A model generated the notes under the pieces. The model had not been told where the DNA came from. It did not search any database and saw nothing but the letters and a program-made list of their open reading frames with translations. Below are positions 23 to 5,548 of a stretch of 5,548 nt of DNA, one piece after another (the stretch's first letter is position 1; each line of letters starts with the position of its first letter). The stretch is from a virus (lineage: Duplodnaviria > Heunggongvirae > Uroviricota > Caudoviricetes): the IMG/VR virus record IMGVR_UViG_2695420478_000008. One strand, written 5' to 3'. Position numbers and translations under genes: made by a program.

Positions 23-763
23 ATGAAAAACATTGCGGCAGTTGGGGTTCTTGAACGTATTCGCAGACTTGCACCACAGGGGTCGGTTCCACCGTACCGT
101 ACGGTGGCGGAGTGGCGGGAATGGCAGCTTGCTGAAGGGCGTAAGCGCAGCGAGGAGGTTAATCGTCTGAATCATCAGACGCGGGTTGAAAAAATTATTA
201 ACCGCTCCGGTATCCAGCTGCTTCACCGGAAGTGTACGTTCGGTAACTACCGGGTGCAGAACGATGGTCAGCGCCATGCCCTGAGTCAGGCGAAATCCAT
301 TGCGGCAGAGCTGGAAGGCGGCTGTACGAATTTTGTTTTCAGTGGCAGGCCTGGCACAGGAAAAAACCACCTGGCGGCGGCTATTGGCAACCACCTTCTG
401 GCGAAAGGTCGCAGTGTGATTGTGATAACAGTGGCGGATGTGATGCTGGCGTTACATGGCAGCTACGACAACAAAAACTCGGGCGAAAAATTTTTGCAGG
501 GATTGTGTGGCGTTGACCTGCTGGTACTGGATGAAATTGGCATGCAACGGGATACGCGTAATGAGCAGGTCACGCTGAATCAGATTGTTGACCGCAGAAC
601 GGCATCGTTACTCAGTGTGGGGATGCTGACAAATCTTAACCATGCAGCGATGAATACACTTCTCGGCGAGCGGGTGATGGACCGCATGTCCATGAACGGT
701 GGTCGCTGGGTGACGTTTAACTGGGAGAGTTGGCGTCCGAACGTCAGCCAGCACAGGAACTGA
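23..763 (+). CDS. DnaC-like replicative helicase loader (AAA+ ATPase, DnaC/IstB family), prophage-encoded
   Basis: 246 aa, near-collinear with E. coli DnaC (245 aa) as recalled from memory. Walker [17 protein letters not shown] is at about nt 341-388 and Walker [10 protein letters not shown] at about nt 515-541. Conserved stretches include NRSGI, FxNYRV, ITVADx[22 protein letters not shown] and FNW. The in-frame stop at 14-16 just upstream suggests a preceding gene ends at the window edge. Confidence 0.9.
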
Positions 764-792
764 GAAGTAATTTTTATCCGGAGGAAGTTTTA

Positions 793-1563
793 ATGGAAAC
801 CGTATTGCATGCACTGAAAGCGATGGGTAAAGCCAATTCTGTTGAACTGGCGGCGCGGCTTGATATCAGCCGTGAAGAAGTTCTCAACGAACTGTGGGAA
901 CTCAAAGAAAATGGCGTTGTTGATAAAACGGGTCACACCTGGTTTCTGGCTGGTGAAGGTGAATCCGGGGTAACCGAAGAACAGCCAGCACAGTCTGAAG
1001 TACCGGATGTGCTGACCGGGGAGGTCGAACAAAAAGTTACCGCGGACATGATGATTGAGTTTATCTGTCAGGATGGGGCTAAAACGTGTGAGGAACTGGC
1101 GGATAAGTTCGGTGTTAGCATTCGCAAGGTTGCTTCCACGTTGGCGGTCGTAACAGCAACGGGGCGCCTGGCACGCGTAAATCAGAACGGTAAATTTCGT
1201 TACTGCATGCCGGGCGATAATTTACCAGCAGAGCCGAAAGCCGCGCTGGTAACGGAAAGTGATGGTAAGGCCTTTCCTCAGCCAGCAGGTGCTGCGTTAC
1301 CAGGCCGGGAAGCCGCAACACAGGAAGAAATTAAAACAGAAACTGTGGCGGACATTGTGCAGTCGTTGCCATCGTTTACCGAAACGCAAGCAGATGAGCT
1401 GATTTTTCCGTCCCTGCGCAGGGCAAACCTGGCGCTGCGCAGGGCGAAAAGTGATGTTCAGAAGTGGGAGCGAGTCTGCGCCGCGCTGCGGGAGCTGAAC
1501 AAGCACCGGGATATTGTTCGACAGATTACTGATTCTTCCCGCCGTGTTGTATCGGAAAAGTGA
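793..1563 (+). CDS. Hypothetical prophage protein with two N-terminal winged-helix-like modules
   Basis: ATG at 793 is preceded by GGAGGAA (780-786). The track ORF begins at 730 but that would overlap the end of the DnaC-like gene and has no RBS. Residues ~1-55 and ~95-150 both show the pattern hydrophobic helix, ELA..hG.S, hydrophobic, then G...G.hF, typical of wHTH DNA-binding domains. The C-terminal region is charged and helical. Confidence 0.6.
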
Positions 1564-1578
1564 TTGCCGGAGGCGCTT

Positions 1579-2001
1579 ATGGCAAAAGTATTTACACAAG
1601 AAGAGCGGGAAAAAATTAAGGGGCAGGTTGTTGAACTCGTGCGCCAGAATGGGCGCGAGACGTTACGACAACTTGAAGCTAAGACAGGTGCGACAAGATA
1701 TTTAATGAGCGTTCTCGCCAGAGAGCTGGTTGCCAGTGGCGATGTATATAACTCCGGCTACGGGCTATTTCCCTCTGAACAGGCTCGTAAGGACTGGCAA
1801 AACGCCCGCAAAAAACTCTCAAGGGCAAAGCTGAAGAAACCATCTGCGGTTGATCCGGACCTTATCTGGTCATTACCAGATGGCGAAATACGCCGCTACG
1901 ACAGGCGTCTGAACATAATCTGTCTCGAGTGCCGGAAGAGCGAAGTTATGCAGCGCGTACTGGCGTTTTATCAGGGGAATTTTGAGGAGGTGGTGCGGTG
2001 A
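1579..2001 (+). CDS. Hypothetical prophage protein with a winged-helix-like N-terminus
   Basis: ATG at 1579 with GGAGG (1568-1572) 6 nt upstream. The track start at 1564 is a TTG directly abutting the preceding stop. The N-terminal VVELVRQNGRETLRQLEAKTGATRYLMSVLARELVASGDV resembles the wHTH modules of the preceding gene. The stop overlaps the next start. Confidence 0.55.
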   Translation: MAKVFTQEEREKIKGQVVELVRQNGRETLRQLEAKTGATRYLMSVLARELVASGDVYNSGYGLFPSEQARKDWQNARKKLSRAKLKKPSAVDPDLIWSLPDGEIRRYDRRLNIICLECRKSEVMQRVLAFYQGNFEEVVR

Positions 2002-2252
2002 GTGAATCAAAATGCCAGGTTAATGGCAACAAGATAGAACCATGTGCAGCACTGGCAAAGTCCCTTGAGCATGATGCTGAATACACGATGCGAAAAGGTC
2101 TGCTGATATACAAAATCTGGAATGAGAGTTTAACTCGCGGTCCTGATTTTGTGATGTTGCGTTCCGGTGAATTTTCTAAATTACCAGTTCGGGTTTCATT
2201 TTGTCCGTTCTGTGGTGAAAGTCTGAAAACGTGGGAGAACAGAAATGAATGA
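1998..2252 (+). CDS. Small hypothetical protein with a Cys4 zinc-ribbon-like arrangement
   Basis: GTG start at 1998 overlaps the upstream stop (GTGA), with GAGGAGG (1984-1990) as RBS. Cysteines are spaced C-x9-C near the N-terminus and C-x2-C (CPFCG) near the C-terminus. 84 aa. Confidence 0.55.
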   Translation: MSESKCQVNGNKIEPCAALAKSLEHDAEYTMRKGLLIYKIWNESLTRGPDFVMLRSGEFSKLPVRVSFCPFCGESLKTWENRNE

Positions 2253-2556
2253 AATTAAAGAAATACCAGTAGTACGTGATGAATATGGCTGCTGGACGCA
2301 TCCTGAATATGAAAAATTCTGTGACGGTCGGGAATATATTTCAACGGAAGAGTTTAACGCCTGGATGGAGGAAAATAATCTTCAATACGTCCTCTGCTTC
2401 AGAGATGAAGGATGTGCTGACCTTGATGCGTGTGATGCTGATATTTCTGCATGGGAACCGGAACGACCAGAGGGCAATGGATGGTTTATTGGTTCAATAC
2501 ATGACACCGAAGATGGCCCGGTTTGTGTATGGCTGAGAAATAAGGCCGAAGCATAA
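2245..2556 (+). CDS. Small, highly acidic, Cys-rich hypothetical protein
   Basis: ATG at 2245 overlaps the end of the preceding gene by 8 nt, with GGGAGA (2232-2237) as RBS. 103 aa with about 25 D/E versus 8 K/R (counted by hand, net about -17), 6 Cys and several Trp. Confidence 0.6.
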   Translation: MNEIKEIPVVRDEYGCWTHPEYEKFCDGREYISTEEFNAWMEENNLQYVLCFRDEGCADLDACDADISAWEPERPEGNGWFIGSIHDTEDGPVCVWLRNKAEA

Positions 2557-2587
2557 AGGCTATAAACCGACTAACAACTAAATACTG

Positions 2588-2622
2588 AGGATTTAAATCA
2601 GAAACGATTTTTATTAAATCCT
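2588..2622. repeat. Perfect 9-bp inverted repeat AGGATTTAA / TTAAATCCT separated by 17 nt, in the intergenic region upstream of Q
   Basis: Read directly: 2588-2596 AGGATTTAA and 2614-2622 TTAAATCCT are exact reverse complements. No U-tract follows on either strand, so it is more likely a protein-binding site or RNA structure than an intrinsic terminator. Confidence 0.35.
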
Positions 2623-2688
2623 TAACCGGAGGGATTCCTGCACCCTCAAATCATCAGGAGGCCGCCAGAAAGGGCGGTGGAGATAATA

Positions 2689-3210
2689 ATGGGAATAACT
2701 AAAGAACGATTGTTGGAAATAGCAAACCTTAGTGATTGGGCATTAAGTGATGAGAGAATTGTTTCTCCTCATGCTTATGAGTCAGTTACAAGTATAGAAA
2801 TAACAACAATGGCTAGAATGCTGCTTGGTTATTTCAAAATAGAAAATAAAAAACAGATGGATAGTAATGTTGATATATGTGAGATTTTAGACGATTGGGG
2901 GGCTTGGGTTGTGGCTGGTAATAGTTCTATTGATTGGCAGGAAATAGCTGATAAATATAAAAATGTTGTTCCTCATGGTAAAAAATCACGTCGTCAGTGC
3001 AGCAATGATGAAGGGCGAATTATTGACATTAGTATCCTTAGGTTAGAAAGATATAAGCAACAAGAATATGAGTTAATTGTTGCTCATTTCGTGATTGGTT
3101 TATCTCTTCGTGCTATTGCAAAGCAACAAGGATGTTCAGATGGAACAATTCGTAAAAGATTGCAAAAAGCCTTAGGTTTTTTGACTGGATATATAGCAAT
3201 TACCAGTTAA
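2689..3210 (+). CDS. Late-gene antitermination protein Q homologue (QuuD-like Phage_antitermQ family) with an N-terminal extension of about 55 aa
   Basis: The C-terminal two thirds match my recollection of E. coli DLP12 QuuD: LDDWGAW, KSRRQCSNDEGRI and the C-terminal GCSDGTIRKRLQKALGFL (QuuD has CCSDGYIGKRLQKAEG). The start is uncertain: ATG 2689 has GGAG 6 nt upstream and is preferred, GTG 2677 is the track start, and ATG 2857 would give a QuuD-length protein but lacks an RBS. Confidence 0.7.
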   Translation: MGITKERLLEIANLSDWALSDERIVSPHAYESVTSIEITTMARMLLGYFKIENKKQMDSNVDICEILDDWGAWVVAGNSSIDWQEIADKYKNVVPHGKKSRRQCSNDEGRIIDISILRLERYKQQEYELIVAHFVIGLSLRAIAKQQGCSDGTIRKRLQKALGFLTGYIAITS

Positions 3211-3848
3211 GAGTCAGCGGTTTTTTTACCAGTGTAATGGTATAAGGATACTCCCATGTGTCTTACATGATATGGAAGCGCTGTTGCTGGATGCTTTGTG
3301 ATACTCTTAAAGCGGAGGGGAGAGCCTTCCGCTTCAATTTCTGCGTCCGAAACGGTCGTAGAGAAAAATTCTTTCCATTCATTGAATTTTACTGCTGATT
3401 TGTCAGACTTTATATAAATTAGAATTCCTCCATGATCGTCACGTGACGTACCCGTGCCGTAACGTTCGGTTAGCTGAATCCAGCCATTATGAATAGATTT
3501 GGGGCCTCTCCATAATTTTGCTTCACCGATCCATTCGAATTTTCCGAATTGATGTTTAACTAATAAATCAACGTGACCGCCATGTTGAGTATCATGTTCA
3601 ACATCATAAAACCTACCTTTCAGGAAATTTTTGATCGACGCTGTTAGCTCGTCCTCTCCCCACTTAGCATCTTGATAGAAGTGTTTGTCATTTTCTAAAT
3701 TCTGAATAGCGTCGTCTAAATCTTCATAGAGTTGCTTTACAAAAATATTTTTGTCTGCAGCTAATTTTCTTTGAACCATTCCCCTAAATTCAGGATCCAT
3801 TCTAATTAATGATTGAAGGTCTGCAGTACAGATGTTTACATCACTCAT
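3207..3848 (-). CDS. Hypothetical protein, third gene of the cargo operon; putative PD-(D/E)xK-type nuclease
   Basis: ATG at 3848-3846 is preceded by GGAGAG and overlaps the stop of the upstream gene (ATGAGTGA). The track's longer ORF to 3911 would overlap the upstream gene by about 70 nt. 213 aa. The motif ...EDELTASIKNFLKG...HGGHVDLLVKHQFGKFEWIGEAKLW has E65/E67, D94 and E109-A-K111 with spacing typical of PD-(D/E)xK nucleases. The fold assignment is inference. Confidence 0.6.
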   Translation of the reverse strand: MSDVNICTADLQSLIRMDPEFRGMVQRKLAADKNIFVKQLYEDLDDAIQNLENDKHFYQDAKWGEDELTASIKNFLKGRFYDVEHDTQHGGHVDLLVKHQFGKFEWIGEAKLWRGPKSIHNGWIQLTERYGTGTSRDDHGGILIYIKSDKSAVKFNEWKEFFSTTVSDAEIEAEGSPLRFKSITKHPATALPYHVRHMGVSLYHYTGKKTADS

Positions 3849-4269
3849 GCAGACTCTCCAAAAGACTCGAAGGAGTAAAGTATGGATAAAGATACTGGCT
3901 AAAATTATCAACCAATTCGCCAGTTTCTGGATGGTAAAAACTTCCTGTGTCTAAAGCATAGGAAATAAGATCATCTTCAACTGGTATTGGTTCTTCCGTT
4001 AAATTATCAATGTATTGAAAATGCATATCCAATAGATGTGCTTTATAGCTAGATAAATAATCAGTTGCTTTTATTAGCAGGATATAGTCATCTTTCGTAT
4101 CAGTTAGATAGGTTAAACCATTGATAAGGGTTTTGTATGTAAAGTGATTGATATTTTTAGCATCTTTACTAACCAGAAAAAGAAAAAGATCACGACACAC
4201 ACTGCGAACAGGATCATTAAAATCCTGCTCTATTTGCGTGATAATGTCGTGATATATACTCTTTTTCAT
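3841..4269 (-). CDS. Hypothetical acidic, Tyr-rich protein, middle gene of the cargo operon
   Basis: 142 aa. The ATG at 4269-4267 overlaps the stop of the upstream gene (ATGA) and its own stop overlaps the next start, indicating translational coupling. No recognisable catalytic motif. Confidence 0.6.
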   Translation of the reverse strand: MKKSIYHDIITQIEQDFNDPVRSVCRDLFLFLVSKDAKNINHFTYKTLINGLTYLTDTKDDYILLIKATDYLSSYKAHLLDMHFQYIDNLTEEPIPVEDDLISYALDTGSFYHPETGELVDNFSQYLYPYFTPSSLLESLHE

Positions 4270-5357
4270 TTATGGCCTGATGATCTCGCTCTTCTTTTCT
4301 CTTCACAGGACTTAACAGAATCCAATATTTTTTCAACAATAAATATAATCGAATCAATGTTGTTACAGTTCTTCGCAATTGCTTCATGCAACCTAATTCT
4401 AGGATTATCAAGCATTGTCCTTTTTCCTGGTAATATTAACTCTACTGATAAAATATGTGAAGAACTTTGTGGTAAATCCCAAATTTTTCCCAACTTAAAC
4501 TTTGTCAATATTGGGCTTGCGGACTCTCCACTATGATGGTAAACATCTTGACGCAAACACTTTTGACTTGGTTTGAGTTTTAAAGAACTTGTATTGCCAT
4601 CTGAGGTGATAAAAGATACATGAGAAATTCTGCCATCTACTTTTTCGTAAAGATCTTGTATTGAACCAAATAATTCAAGAGGATTGTTTAAAATAACGCC
4701 AGCTTCTTTTTTTATAAATTTAGCCACAAGGTATTGTTGAGGCTGTGATTCACTTCTTGGAAGGATAGATAAATCAATCGTAAGAATTAATATTTTTTCT
4801 GCAGGCATTAGCATGATGGTATTAAAGCATTGCGTGACTTGGCGTGTTTTGCATTTTATTTCTCCACCATTAGCACGTAATTCCATACCCGCATCGCTAA
4901 GATGTGTTGGGTCAAGCTCTATCACTTCAGTGTAATACGCTTTGGATAAAAAAACAGCAGTGTCAATTTGTTTATCACGAATGATATCTTGACGTAGTTC
5001 AGCAAAATGCAGCTCAGTATCAGCAACTAACAGCTCCTCTCTGGATAAAGGAGTTGGGTATTTTTCTGAGAAGGGGCTATTGTCCTTTTTCTGATTTGTG
5101 AAAATTGTTTGTAATTTTGCTACGTCTTCATCGGTGATTCTATAAATAGAAAGTAATCGATTCCCGCTAAAAATTAAACCTTTCCAGAAATCGTCGATTC
5201 TGTCTTTTAGGTCGGGATTATGCTGAACTACACTATTTACACGTTCAATAAAAAGGGGTAATCCTTGGGCCGTTACACCCAGTGATGAACCAAGAAGCTT
5301 ACGGGTGTTGCGCCAGCCAAAGCGTGAATTGATGTTTTTTACTGTTTGCTCAAGCAT
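4266..5357 (-). CDS. Hypothetical protein, first and largest gene of the cargo operon; function unknown
   Basis: ATG at 5357-5355 is preceded by a strong SD, AAGGAAG (5370-5364), with 6-nt spacing; the track start is the GTG two codons upstream at 5363. 363 aa, with no P-loop, no GS...DxD nucleotidyltransferase motif and no reverse-transcriptase YxDD motif visible. The C-terminus is basic (KRRARSSGHK). Confidence 0.65.
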   Translation of the reverse strand: MLEQTVKNINSRFGWRNTRKLLGSSLGVTAQGLPLFIERVNSVVQHNPDLKDRIDDFWKGLIFSGNRLLSIYRITDEDVAKLQTIFTNQKKDNSPFSEKYPTPLSREELLVADTELHFAELRQDIIRDKQIDTAVFLSKAYYTEVIELDPTHLSDAGMELRANGGEIKCKTRQVTQCFNTIMLMPAEKILILTIDLSILPRSESQPQQYLVAKFIKKEAGVILNNPLELFGSIQDLYEKVDGRISHVSFITSDGNTSSLKLKPSQKCLRQDVYHHSGESASPILTKFKLGKIWDLPQSSSHILSVELILPGKRTMLDNPRIRLHEAIAKNCNNIDSIIFIVEKILDSVKSCEEKRRARSSGHK

Positions 5358-5410
5358 TAACACTTCCTTAATTTTCCCTTAACAATTTAGGGTGCTAAAC
5401 TTTTTTGCGC

Positions 5411-5440
5411 AGTTTACATAAAAAAATAGTGCGTACGCAA
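5411..5440 (-). promoter_or_regulatory. Candidate sigma70 promoter for the minus-strand operon: -35 TTGCGT (5440-5435), 18-bp spacer, -10 TAAACT (5416-5411)
   Basis: Hexamers read by eye on the reverse complement. An A/T-rich tract lies between them and the perfect palindrome GCGTACGC (5431-5438) overlaps the -35. The predicted transcript start would be about 45-50 nt upstream of the ATG. Not experimentally supported. Confidence 0.25.
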
Positions 5441-5508
5441 AAACTATCTAAGGAAGGTGCGAATAAGCAGGTCATTTCTTCCCAAGCTGACTCGCTGATT
5501 AAAATTTC

Positions 5509-5530
5509 TCGGATCTGGGCCGATTTTTTT
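5509..5530 (+). terminator. Weak candidate intrinsic terminator on the plus strand: 4-bp stem TCGG/CCGA, 7-nt loop, then T7 tract
   Basis: Read directly: tcgg (5509-5512), atctggg, ccga (5520-5523), followed by ttttttt (5524-5530). The stem is short and so predicted stability is low. Confidence 0.2.
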
Positions 5531-5548
5531 CCCGCAAACACATCGAAT

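What the first reader, a model, noticed from the sequence alone, without database searches (positions are those of the whole stretch)
3207..3210. Q and the cargo operon converge with overlapping stop codons (TTAA), leaving no intergenic terminator
The Q stop (TAA, 3208-3210) and the minus-strand stop (TAA, 3209-3207) share the sequence TTAA. Any terminator for either transcript must therefore lie inside the other gene. Read-through from Q into the antisense strand of the operon, or the reverse, is likely and could couple expression of the cargo to the prophage state by transcriptional interference or antisense RNA.
Basis: seen in the sequence. Interest (0 to 1): 0.45.

Follow-up and report, generated by a model that had tools for sequence, protein, structure and literature searches.

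The report
Terminator-less tail-to-tail junction of Q and cargo
Two converging prophage genes do share the four bases TTAA as stop codons, a common geometry; the more useful result is that this regulator gene family routinely carries opposite-strand cargo genes just downstream, and this cargo lacks the usual terminator hairpin.

Summary
TAA at 3208-3210 ends a Q21-family (PF06530) ORF. The reverse complement of 3207-3209 ends the last gene of a three-gene minus-strand cassette (RdgC-like protein, small protein, PD-(D/E)xK nuclease).

The exact 4-nt overlap is ordinary. TTAA/CTAA/CTAG/TTAG overlaps are the commonest convergent class. In seven lineages of this cassette the junction ranges from a 6-nt gap to a 25-nt overlap.

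Three wider results:
1. In 80 viral contigs with this Q subfamily, 17 of 18 downstream-neighbour families are convergent, -30 to +39 nt from the Q stop. The conserved pR'-like block always lies 0.65-2.9 kb further on.
2. Most of those cargos have a strong palindromic hairpin at the junction (18 of 26 representatives). This cassette has none in 7 of 7 lineages.
3. The "Q" here is a displaced copy. Its pR' block is truncated, and in E. coli E2348/69 another Q sits in the late-gene position.

Antisense read-through is therefore plausible, with a C-rich candidate Rho site inside anti-Q, but it is unproven. Any coupling would be to early-operon transcription, not to Q activity. The finding itself is of modest interest. 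The cargo slot is the more interesting lead.

The parts
3207..3210 (.). TTAA shared by the two stop codons (TAA 3208-3210 on +; TAA as reverse complement of 3207-3209 on -)
2689..3210 (+). Q21-family antiterminator homologue, 173 aa. The Q domain spans residues ~60-173; the N-terminal ~60 aa is an extension matching phrog_3323. It is a displaced, probably orphan copy.
   Evidence: PF06530 E=9e-32. phrog_79 and phrog_3323. Q21 structures 6P18/6JNX E=6e-4. 35 of 37 differences from STEC308 lie in the first 231 nt, indicating a recombination breakpoint near 2920.
3207..3848 (-). geneC, 213 aa, PD-(D/E)xK nuclease with invariant D94, E109 and K111. The C-terminal tail after ...HYTG is unconserved and disordered. 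NCBI calls a shorter start at 3800.
3841..4269 (-). geneB, 142 aa, no recognisable domain. It overlaps geneC by 8 nt and geneA by 4 nt.
   Evidence: phrog_11490
4266..5357 (-). geneA, 363 aa, partly RdgC-like fold. SD AAGGAAG lies before ATG 5357.
5411..5440 (-). Candidate cassette promoter: -35 TTGCGT (5440-5435), 18-nt spacer, -10 TAAACT (5416-5411).
   Evidence: The TTGCGT lies in the conserved slot border. A -10-like hexamer at a 16-18 nt spacer occurs in 24 of 28 distinct borders, against 40 of 112 at control offsets. The generic consensus scan did not call it.
5429..5448 (+). Remnant of the conserved late-promoter (pR'-like) block, GTGCGTACGCAAAAACTATC. It is truncated about 10 nt before the 13-mer TGTTAAGAGTGGT and its terminator.
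3310..3334 (+). Hairpin AAGCGGAGGG-GAGAG-CCUUCCGCUU (-17.2 kcal/mol) followed by a weak U tract, 100-124 nt inside geneC. It is the only terminator-like site for Q-strand read-through.
2817..2972 (-). C-rich, G-poor stretch of the cassette read-through RNA (C/G 3.2-6.75, top 1% of the window). Candidate Rho loading site 235-390 nt past the geneC stop.
2613..2678 (+). Conserved double-hairpin intergenic element with the shared SD/ATG. It is the left border of the variable region in Rac-like prophages.
5452..5548 (.). End of an IS5-family (ISKpn26-like) element inserted at CTAA (5448-5451), 11 nt upstream of the candidate -35.

Best explanation
What it is. The TTAA is the tail-to-tail junction between a Q21-family antiterminator homologue and the last gene of a three-gene accessory cassette. 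The cassette encodes an RdgC-like protein, a small protein and a PD-(D/E)xK nuclease, and is a candidate anti-phage system.

The cassette sits in what appears to be a standing cargo slot of this Q subfamily. The slot lies between the Q gene and its conserved late-promoter block (ACGCGTACGCAAAAA, 15 nt, TGTTAAGAGTGGT, then an intrinsic terminator). It is filled almost always by opposite-strand cargo. That cargo is read from a leftward promoter whose -35 (TTGCGT) lies in the conserved border.

The exact 4-nt overlap is a by-product. Both proteins end in unconserved tails, so the stop codons drift, giving anything from a 6-nt gap to a 25-nt overlap in sister lineages. The distinctive feature is that this cassette, unlike most cargos in the slot, has no hairpin at the junction.

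How it likely works (inferred, not shown).
- In the lysogen the cassette is transcribed from its own promoter. Its RNA continues antisense into the Q gene until Rho stops it in the C-rich tract at 2817-2972.
- After induction, rightward early transcription that makes the Q mRNA runs head-on through the cassette and lowers its expression.
- In this window the Q copy has lost its target promoter, so any coupling is to early-operon transcription, not to Q's antitermination activity.
For: Junction and gene ends.

Cassette identity. Invariant D/E/K.

Same cassette abutting PF06530 Q genes in E. coli, Salmonella, Enterobacter, Cronobacter and Pantoea, with spacing +6 to -25.

Cassette without any Q in Yersinia, Vibrio, Shewanella and Alteromonadaceae.

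Slot:
- 70 of 72 called neighbours in 80 viral contigs are convergent.
- 17 of 18 neighbour families are convergent.
- The 13-mer lies 653-2922 nt past the Q stop in 52 contigs.
- Conserved border and terminator.
- Different cargo in O104:H4 and strain 99-3165.
- Leftward promoter.

No hairpin in 7 of 7 cassette lineages against 18 of 26 other representatives with a hairpin of -10 kcal/mol or stronger. My hypergeometric arithmetic gives p about 0.0015.

No intrinsic terminator. C>G bubble.

Displacement of Q.
Against: - There are no transcript data of any kind, so read-through, Rho termination and interference are all inferred from sequence.
- The promoter is only a consensus-level call, and the generic scan missed it.
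- Junction regions of overlapping pairs are shorter, so they have less room for a hairpin. One 4-nt-overlap cargo (L091) nevertheless has a -15.7 hairpin.
- The 80 contigs are the best-scoring hits of one Q subfamily and are redundant. Family-level counts rest on simple ORF calling.
- The cassette also lacks a canonical terminator where it is not next to Q, so the absence may be a neutral trait of the cassette rather than an adaptation to Q.
- Anti-phage function is not shown. PADLOC gave only one faint match (geneC to PDC-S54, E 0.0017).
Confidence: 0.5

Rival explanations
1. Neutral compaction. The overlap and the missing terminator have no regulatory role. They are the frozen scar of recombination in a compact phage genome. 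Both transcripts are ended promptly by Rho once translation stops, and interference is negligible.
For: - Four-base convergent overlaps are the commonest short class and are found throughout prokaryotes.
- The junction geometry is not conserved among lineages.
- Both protein tails are unconserved.
- The cassette also lacks a canonical terminator away from Q.
- In this window Q is an orphan, so nothing obvious needs regulating.
Against: - Most other cargos in the same slot keep a strong junction hairpin, even within 2-39 nt, which suggests insulation is normally selected there.
- Its consistent absence in seven lineages of one cassette is then unexpected.
- N-type antiterminated early transcription would ignore Rho (textbook knowledge of lambdoid phages, not tested here).
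Confidence: 0.35
2. The Q-like protein is a working part of the module. For example, its sigma region-4-like HTH could regulate the cassette promoter, which would explain why it was carried into a Rac-like prophage without its late promoter.
For: - Q-like and the cassette were moved together, replacing resident genes.
- The ORF is intact in 14 genomes. dN/dS is 0.38 against STEC308.
- The remnant ACGCGTACGCA-like element still lies beside the cassette promoter.
- Sigma70_r4 similarity.
Against: - The cassette occurs without any Q in Yersinia, Vibrio, Shewanella and Alteromonadaceae.
- Near-identical Q proteins sit next to 18 unrelated cargos.
- Co-transfer is explained by physical overlap, since no crossover can separate the two genes.
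- Nearly all divergence in the ORF is in the N-terminal extension, so the dN/dS says little about the Q domain.
Confidence: 0.1
3. Annotation artefact. One of the two ORFs really ends elsewhere, so there is no overlap.
For: NCBI and ORF listing disagree on the start of geneC (3800 against 3848). The Q ORF has a possible internal start near residue 59.
Against: Only the starts are in doubt. Both stops are fixed by the sequence, by full-length family matches and by identical junctions in independent genomes.
Confidence: 0.02

Closest known systems
Short convergent (tail-to-tail) gene overlaps of prokaryotes: the TTAA/CTAA/CTAG/TTAG class (Lillo and Krakauer 2007, PMC2174442)
   Same: Two stop codons share four bases. 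Any intrinsic terminator must lie in the partner's coding sequence. In E. coli, 19 of 58 convergent overlaps have such an intragenic terminator.
   Different: Here neither gene has a convincing intragenic terminator near the junction. The pair also belongs to a recurrent phage module rather than being an isolated chromosomal pair.
Lambda paQ antisense RNA, which lowers Q expression (summarised in PMC2327240)
   Same: An RNA made antisense to the 3' part of Q from a leftward promoter would reduce Q expression when the lytic programme is not wanted.
   Different: paQ is a CII-activated promoter inside Q that makes a dedicated short RNA. Here the antisense RNA would be unterminated read-through of a protein-coding operon. 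Its existence is not shown, and this Q copy seems to have no target.
The Q-dependent regulatory cassette of lambdoid phages: Q gene, then PR', SDPE, terminator, late genes (Yin et al. 2019, bioRxiv 10.1101/651190)
   Same: The Q protein is of the Q21/933W family (PF06530). In canonical relatives, a conserved promoter-like block with a terminator 25-45 nt later precedes the holin.
   Different: In this subfamily the Q gene and the PR'-like block are separated by 0.65-2.9 kb of opposite-strand cargo. In the window the block is truncated and the Q gene lies in the early region.
Phage morons (own knowledge: Juhala/Hendrix definition, an extra gene flanked by its own promoter and a factor-independent terminator)
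   Same: This is accessory, low-GC, independently transcribed cargo inside a prophage, probably expressed in the lysogen.
   Different: There is no terminator. The -35 of the promoter appears to be supplied by the conserved slot border rather than by the cargo. The orientation is convergent to Q.
Prophage and satellite hotspots of antiviral systems (P2/P4; PMC9122126)
   Same: A fixed position between conserved phage genes holds many unrelated cargo sets, several of them nuclease-like.
   Different: The phage family and position differ (between an antiterminator gene and its target promoter). There is a strong orientation bias. Defence activity of the cargo is untested.
Transcriptional interference between convergent promoters (own knowledge: coliphage 186 pR/pL)
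   Same: Face-to-face transcription units without an intervening terminator.
   Different: In 186 the promoters are 62 bp apart and interference is measured. Here they would be more than 2 kb apart and nothing is measured.

Membership tests
Q21/933W-family antiterminator Q (PF06530) | Sequence membership in PF06530 | tested here: met
   E=9e-32, 109.9 bits against a cut-off of 26, residues 62-171. phrog_79 E=1.7e-34.
Q21/933W-family antiterminator Q (PF06530) | Detectable similarity to the solved Q21 protein | tested here: met
   6P18/6JNX E about 6e-4, residues 67-145 aligned to Q21 20-99. The match is weak and the C-terminal part is about 35 aa shorter than Q21.
Q21/933W-family antiterminator Q (PF06530) | Gene lies at the end of the early-right operon, just before the late promoter and lysis genes | tested here: not met
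   In the 99%-identical E2348/69 locus it lies before hokD, DUF968 and RusA, and a second Q precedes the tRNAs and holin. The module replaces small early genes of Rac-like prophages.
Q21/933W-family antiterminator Q (PF06530) | Cognate PR'/QBE/SDPE/terminator unit downstream | tested here: not met
   The 13-mer TGWTAAGAGTGGT and its terminator are present in all 15 canonical loci but absent from the window, L001 and L002. The block is truncated at about 5448.
Q21/933W-family antiterminator Q (PF06530) | Antitermination activity | not testable with these tools
   Needs a PR'-terminator reporter.
Bidirectional intrinsic terminator at a convergent junction | G+C-rich palindromic hairpin flanked by A and T tracts between or across the two stops | tested here: not met
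   Best hairpin is -1.0 to -2.5 kcal/mol at the junction and the consensus scan found none. The 3163-3183 hairpin is -8 on + but only -3.5 on -, and lies inside the Q ORF.
Moron | Own promoter | tested here: inconclusive
   It is an opposite-strand island, so it needs its own promoter. TTGCGT-18-TAAACT fits a pattern shared by 24 of 28 slot borders, but the generic scan did not call it and there are no transcript data.
Moron | Own factor-independent terminator | tested here: not met
PD-(D/E)xK nuclease superfamily (geneC) | Restriction-endonuclease-like fold with a D...(D/E)xK catalytic motif | tested here: met
RdgC-like DNA-binding proteins (geneA) | RdgC fold | tested here: inconclusive
Known anti-phage defence systems (PADLOC-DB v2) | Match of the component proteins to a system model | tested here: not met
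   The only match involving a cassette protein is geneC to PDC-S54, E 0.0017. No Pfam or NCBIfam hit.
paQ-type antisense control of Q | An RNA antisense to Q is made and lowers Q expression | not testable with these tools
   Only the geometry (no terminator; C-rich antisense strand) is compatible.

The most novel reading that the evidence does not exclude
This Q21 subfamily carries a built-in cargo slot with its own promoter, lying between the antiterminator gene and its own late promoter. Diverse accessory or defence genes are plugged in head-on to early lytic transcription. For cargos without a junction hairpin, such as this nuclease cassette, convergent transcription would act as a switch. 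It would keep the cargo on and Q leak-free in the lysogen, and shut the potentially self-harming nuclease off once the prophage goes lytic.
Probability: 0.3. Interest if true: 0.6.

Novelty: new member of a known kind. Interest (0 to 1): 0.35.

Why it matters
The shared TTAA on its own matters little, because it is a routine way for two converging genes to end.

The context could matter more. If the slot between Q and its late promoter is a general docking site for opposite-strand cargo, it would be a simple, searchable place to find new prophage-borne accessory and defence genes in enterobacteria. It would also explain why such cargo hitch-hikes with the Q/pR' specificity pair.

The contrast between cargos with and without a junction hairpin sets up a direct experiment. 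It would test whether convergent transcription ties expression of a nuclease cassette to the lysogenic or lytic state.

Tried and rejected
- Rfam at E<=1 found nothing relevant.
- Pfam, NCBIfam and PADLOC gave no usable name for the three cassette proteins.
- A profile search of PDB sequences with geneC found nothing.
- The genome-contig scan first failed for lack of a conserved stretch, then returned only 3 loci.
- The INPHARED phage collection holds no close relative of the module.
- Protein accession numbers of the four genes occur in no searchable paper. Literature searches for a described hotspot downstream of Q found none.
- Hypothesis that the N-terminal extension of the Q ORF is a fusion with the resident DUF7167 gene: rejected. 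There is no similarity, and homology with module-less prophages stops at the shared SD/ATG.
- Hypothesis that the A5GCC-UUA-GGU6 hairpin at 3163-3183 is a bidirectional terminator: rejected. It is -3.5 kcal/mol on the cassette strand and lies inside the Q ORF.
- Hypothesis that GCGTACGCAAAAA belongs to the cassette: rejected. The same block flanks unrelated cargos.
- Idea that IMG/VR contig L029 is the source of the window: rejected, because it lacks the IS.
- My first home-made terminator scan had a de-duplication bug and was replaced.

Full report
OBSERVATION.
Positions 3207-3210 read TTAA. The + strand ORF 2689-3210 ends with TAA at 3208-3210. The - strand ORF ends with TAA read from 3209 to 3207. 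Both ends are real gene ends:
- The - ORF matches phrog_9664 from residue 1 to 211 of 213, and a 213-aa protein of the same length is in the protein collection.
- The + ORF matches Pfam PF06530 up to residue 171 of 173.
- The junction is identical in E. coli E2348/69 and 13 other complete genomes.

The geometry is not unusual. Lillo and Krakauer list TTAA, CTAA, CTAG and TTAG as the tetramers that end two converging genes. About a third of 1890 convergent overlaps in 58 genomes are of this short kind. In E. coli, 19 of 58 convergent overlaps have a terminator inside the partner gene (PMC2174442).

WHAT THE GENES ARE.
The + ORF is a Q21/933W-family antiterminator homologue:
- PF06530, E=9e-32.
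- Weak direct match to the solved Q21 protein.
- The family is assigned to Q21 in bioRxiv 10.1101/651190.

The - strand carries three translationally coupled genes with no Pfam, NCBIfam or PADLOC assignment:
- geneA (5357-4266) has a partly RdgC-like predicted fold.
- geneB (4269-3841) has no recognisable domain.

From about 2560 to 5400 the G+C content is about 35%, against 50-55% upstream.

THE 'Q' IS A DISPLACED COPY.
In E2348/69, which is 99% identical over 1569-5451, the block lies in a Rac-like prophage between the replication genes and hokD. A second Q gene sits 4.5 kb downstream, just before the tRNAs and lysis genes. Rac-like prophages without the block have small + strand genes at the same place. 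Homology with them stops at a conserved double-hairpin element and the shared SD/ATG. Between the window and strain STEC308, 35 of the 37 differences in the Q ORF lie in its first 231 nt. The rest of Q and the cassette differ by about 1% or less, so a crossover lies inside the ORF near 2920.

THE CASSETTE ELSEWHERE.
The three genes form a rare, self-contained unit (45 geneC clusters).

In Enterobacterales lambdoid prophages it always lies tail-to-tail with a PF06530 Q gene, between Q and the holin. The junction varies:

| Lineage | Junction |
|---|---|
| Window type | 4-nt overlap |
| Enterobacter sp. | 4-nt overlap (CTAG) |
| Salmonella L020 | 4-nt overlap (TTAA) |
| E. cloacae / Salmonella L010 type | 12-nt overlap |
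| Pantoea | 20-nt overlap |
| E. coli L003 type | 25-nt overlap |
| Cronobacter | 6-nt gap |

In L003 the codon that is a stop in its sisters reads TAC, and Q runs on for seven codons.

GeneC's tail after ...SL(Y/F)HxTG is unconserved and predicted disordered. Q's tail after GF(I/V)xG is also hypervariable.

In Yersinia, Alteromonadaceae, Vibrio, Shewanella and Cellvibrionaceae the cassette has no Q neighbour, and the gap to the next (also convergent) ORF is 12-224 nt. Q is therefore not an obligatory partner, and the exact 4-nt overlap is not what is conserved.

A GENERAL CARGO SLOT.
All canonical Q-linked loci share a block on the far side of the cassette: ACGCG(T/G)(A/T)CCGCAAAA-type sequence, 15 nt, TG(T/A)TAAGAGTGGT, then 25-45 nt later an intrinsic terminator, then the holin. 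This matches the promoter, pause element and terminator unit expected after a Q gene. I could not assign the -35, -10 or QBE.

The same block follows different two-gene opposite-strand cargos in E. coli O104:H4 and strain 99-3165. Their gaps from Q are 12 and 13 nt.

In 80 IMG/VR contigs carrying this Q subfamily:
- The ORF just downstream of Q is on the opposite strand in 70 of the 72 cases with a called ORF.
- These neighbours fall into 18 unrelated protein families, 17 of them convergent.
- Stop-to-stop spacing is -30 to +39 nt.
- The 13-mer, found in 52 contigs, is always 653-2922 nt beyond the Q stop and never adjacent.

On the cargo strand the conserved border provides TTGCGT. A -10-like hexamer lies 16-18 nt further in 24 of 28 distinct borders, against 40 of 112 at control offsets. 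In the window this is TTGCGT (5440-5435), 18 nt, TAAACT (5416-5411).

The window and E2348/69 keep only the first part of the block (5429-5448) and lack the 13-mer and terminator. This Q copy has therefore lost its presumed target.

TERMINATORS.
At the window junction there is no terminator-like site on either strand, and the local fold is -2.5 kcal/mol.
- On the + strand, the nearest candidate is a -17.2 kcal/mol hairpin at 3310-3334 with a poor U tract, 100 nt inside geneC.
- On the cassette strand nothing is found within 400 nt.
- The RNA that would be made there is C-rich and G-poor throughout. C/G is 3.2-6.75 at 2972-2817, in the top 1% of the window. That composition is typical of Rho loading sites (general knowledge).

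Most other cargos in the slot do have a strong A-tract/GC-stem/T-tract palindrome across the junction, even in gaps of 7-39 nt and in one 4-nt overlap. Eighteen of 26 representatives, covering 15 of 16 other convergent families, have a hairpin of -10 kcal/mol or stronger. None of the seven lineages of this cassette does; their values range from 0 to -6.1. My hypergeometric arithmetic on these counts gives p about 0.0015. Two caveats apply: the lineages are not independent, and the regions scanned are shorter for overlapping pairs.

It is also a lineage-constant and atypical trait of this cassette.

MECHANISM.
Shown: the geometry, the absence of hairpins, the conserved slot and its borders, and the displacement of Q.

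Inferred:
- The cassette is transcribed from its border promoter in the lysogen.
- Its RNA runs antisense into Q until Rho acts.
- After induction, early rightward transcription crosses the Q stop and meets cassette transcription head-on.

The closest precedent for an anti-Q RNA is lambda paQ (PMC2327240). Because this Q copy seems to have no target, any coupling in this window would be between early-operon transcription and the cassette, not through Q function.

The main rival is neutral compaction with prompt Rho termination. It is supported by the variable geometry and by the cassette also lacking canonical terminators away from Q. A minor rival is that the Q-like protein regulates the cassette. 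Q-less occurrences and the 18 unrelated cargos next to near-identical Q proteins argue against it.

VERDICT.
The feature is real, but as stated it is an ordinary kind of gene junction. The regulatory reading is plausible and somewhat strengthened by the comparative data, but it is untested.

The more interesting lead is the opposite-strand cargo slot between this Q subfamily and its late promoter. I found no description of it in the searchable literature, and that search was limited.

Noticed in passing
window 5452-5548 (target CTAA 5448-5451): End of an IS5-family, ISKpn26-like element, multi-copy in E. coli (up to 43 places per genome). It is inserted 11 nt upstream of the candidate -35 of the cassette promoter and is absent from E2348/69 and IMG/VR contig L029. 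In a reference copy the transposase is transcribed towards this end, in the same direction as the cassette. It could therefore alter cassette expression.
   Followed up: partly
window 2613-2678: A 66-nt intergenic element with two hairpins (GAGGG...CCCTC and GCCGCC-AGAAAG-GGCGGT) is conserved in about 2800 of 5426 complete E. coli genomes. With the shared SD/ATG it marks the left border of a variable region in Rac-like prophages. Its function is unknown. It has a boxB-like look, but no T tract follows.
   Followed up: partly
window 2689-2920: The first ~77 codons of the Q ORF are an extension absent from canonical 115-129-aa Q proteins. They match a separate phage family (phrog_3323) and differ about 15% from STEC308, while the rest of the ORF is nearly identical. 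The ORF is mosaic. An internal start near residue 59 (ATG here, GTG in STEC308) cannot be excluded.
   Followed up: partly
loci L026, L028, L036-L108 (IMG/VR and E. coli prophages): The position between this Q subfamily and the conserved TGTTAAGAGTGGT block holds at least 18 unrelated cargo families, 17 on the opposite strand. This is a candidate hotspot for accessory or defence genes.
   Followed up: yes
window 3207-5357 (- strand): The three-gene cassette (RdgC-like, small protein, PD-(D/E)xK nuclease) is not in PADLOC v2, Pfam or NCBIfam. It also occurs in integrative islands of Vibrio and Shewanella and in a Yersinia phage tail region. It is a candidate undescribed defence system.
   Followed up: partly
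window 3800-3848: RefSeq starts geneC at ATG 3800 (197 aa). The PHROG profile and the protein-collection clusters support ATG 3848 (213 aa), which overlaps the geneB stop by 8 nt.
   Followed up: yes
window 1998-2252: This 84-aa ORF (phrog_4030) is intact in the window but annotated as a pseudogene with an internal stop in E2348/69.
   Followed up: no
L027 (E. coli S5) 2928-5315: Downstream of a near-identical Q there is a + strand DNA cytosine methyltransferase. It converges, with a 32-nt overlap, on a HEPN-like nuclease and a DUF262 gene. This is the one co-directional cargo type, possibly a restriction-modification-like set.
   Followed up: no
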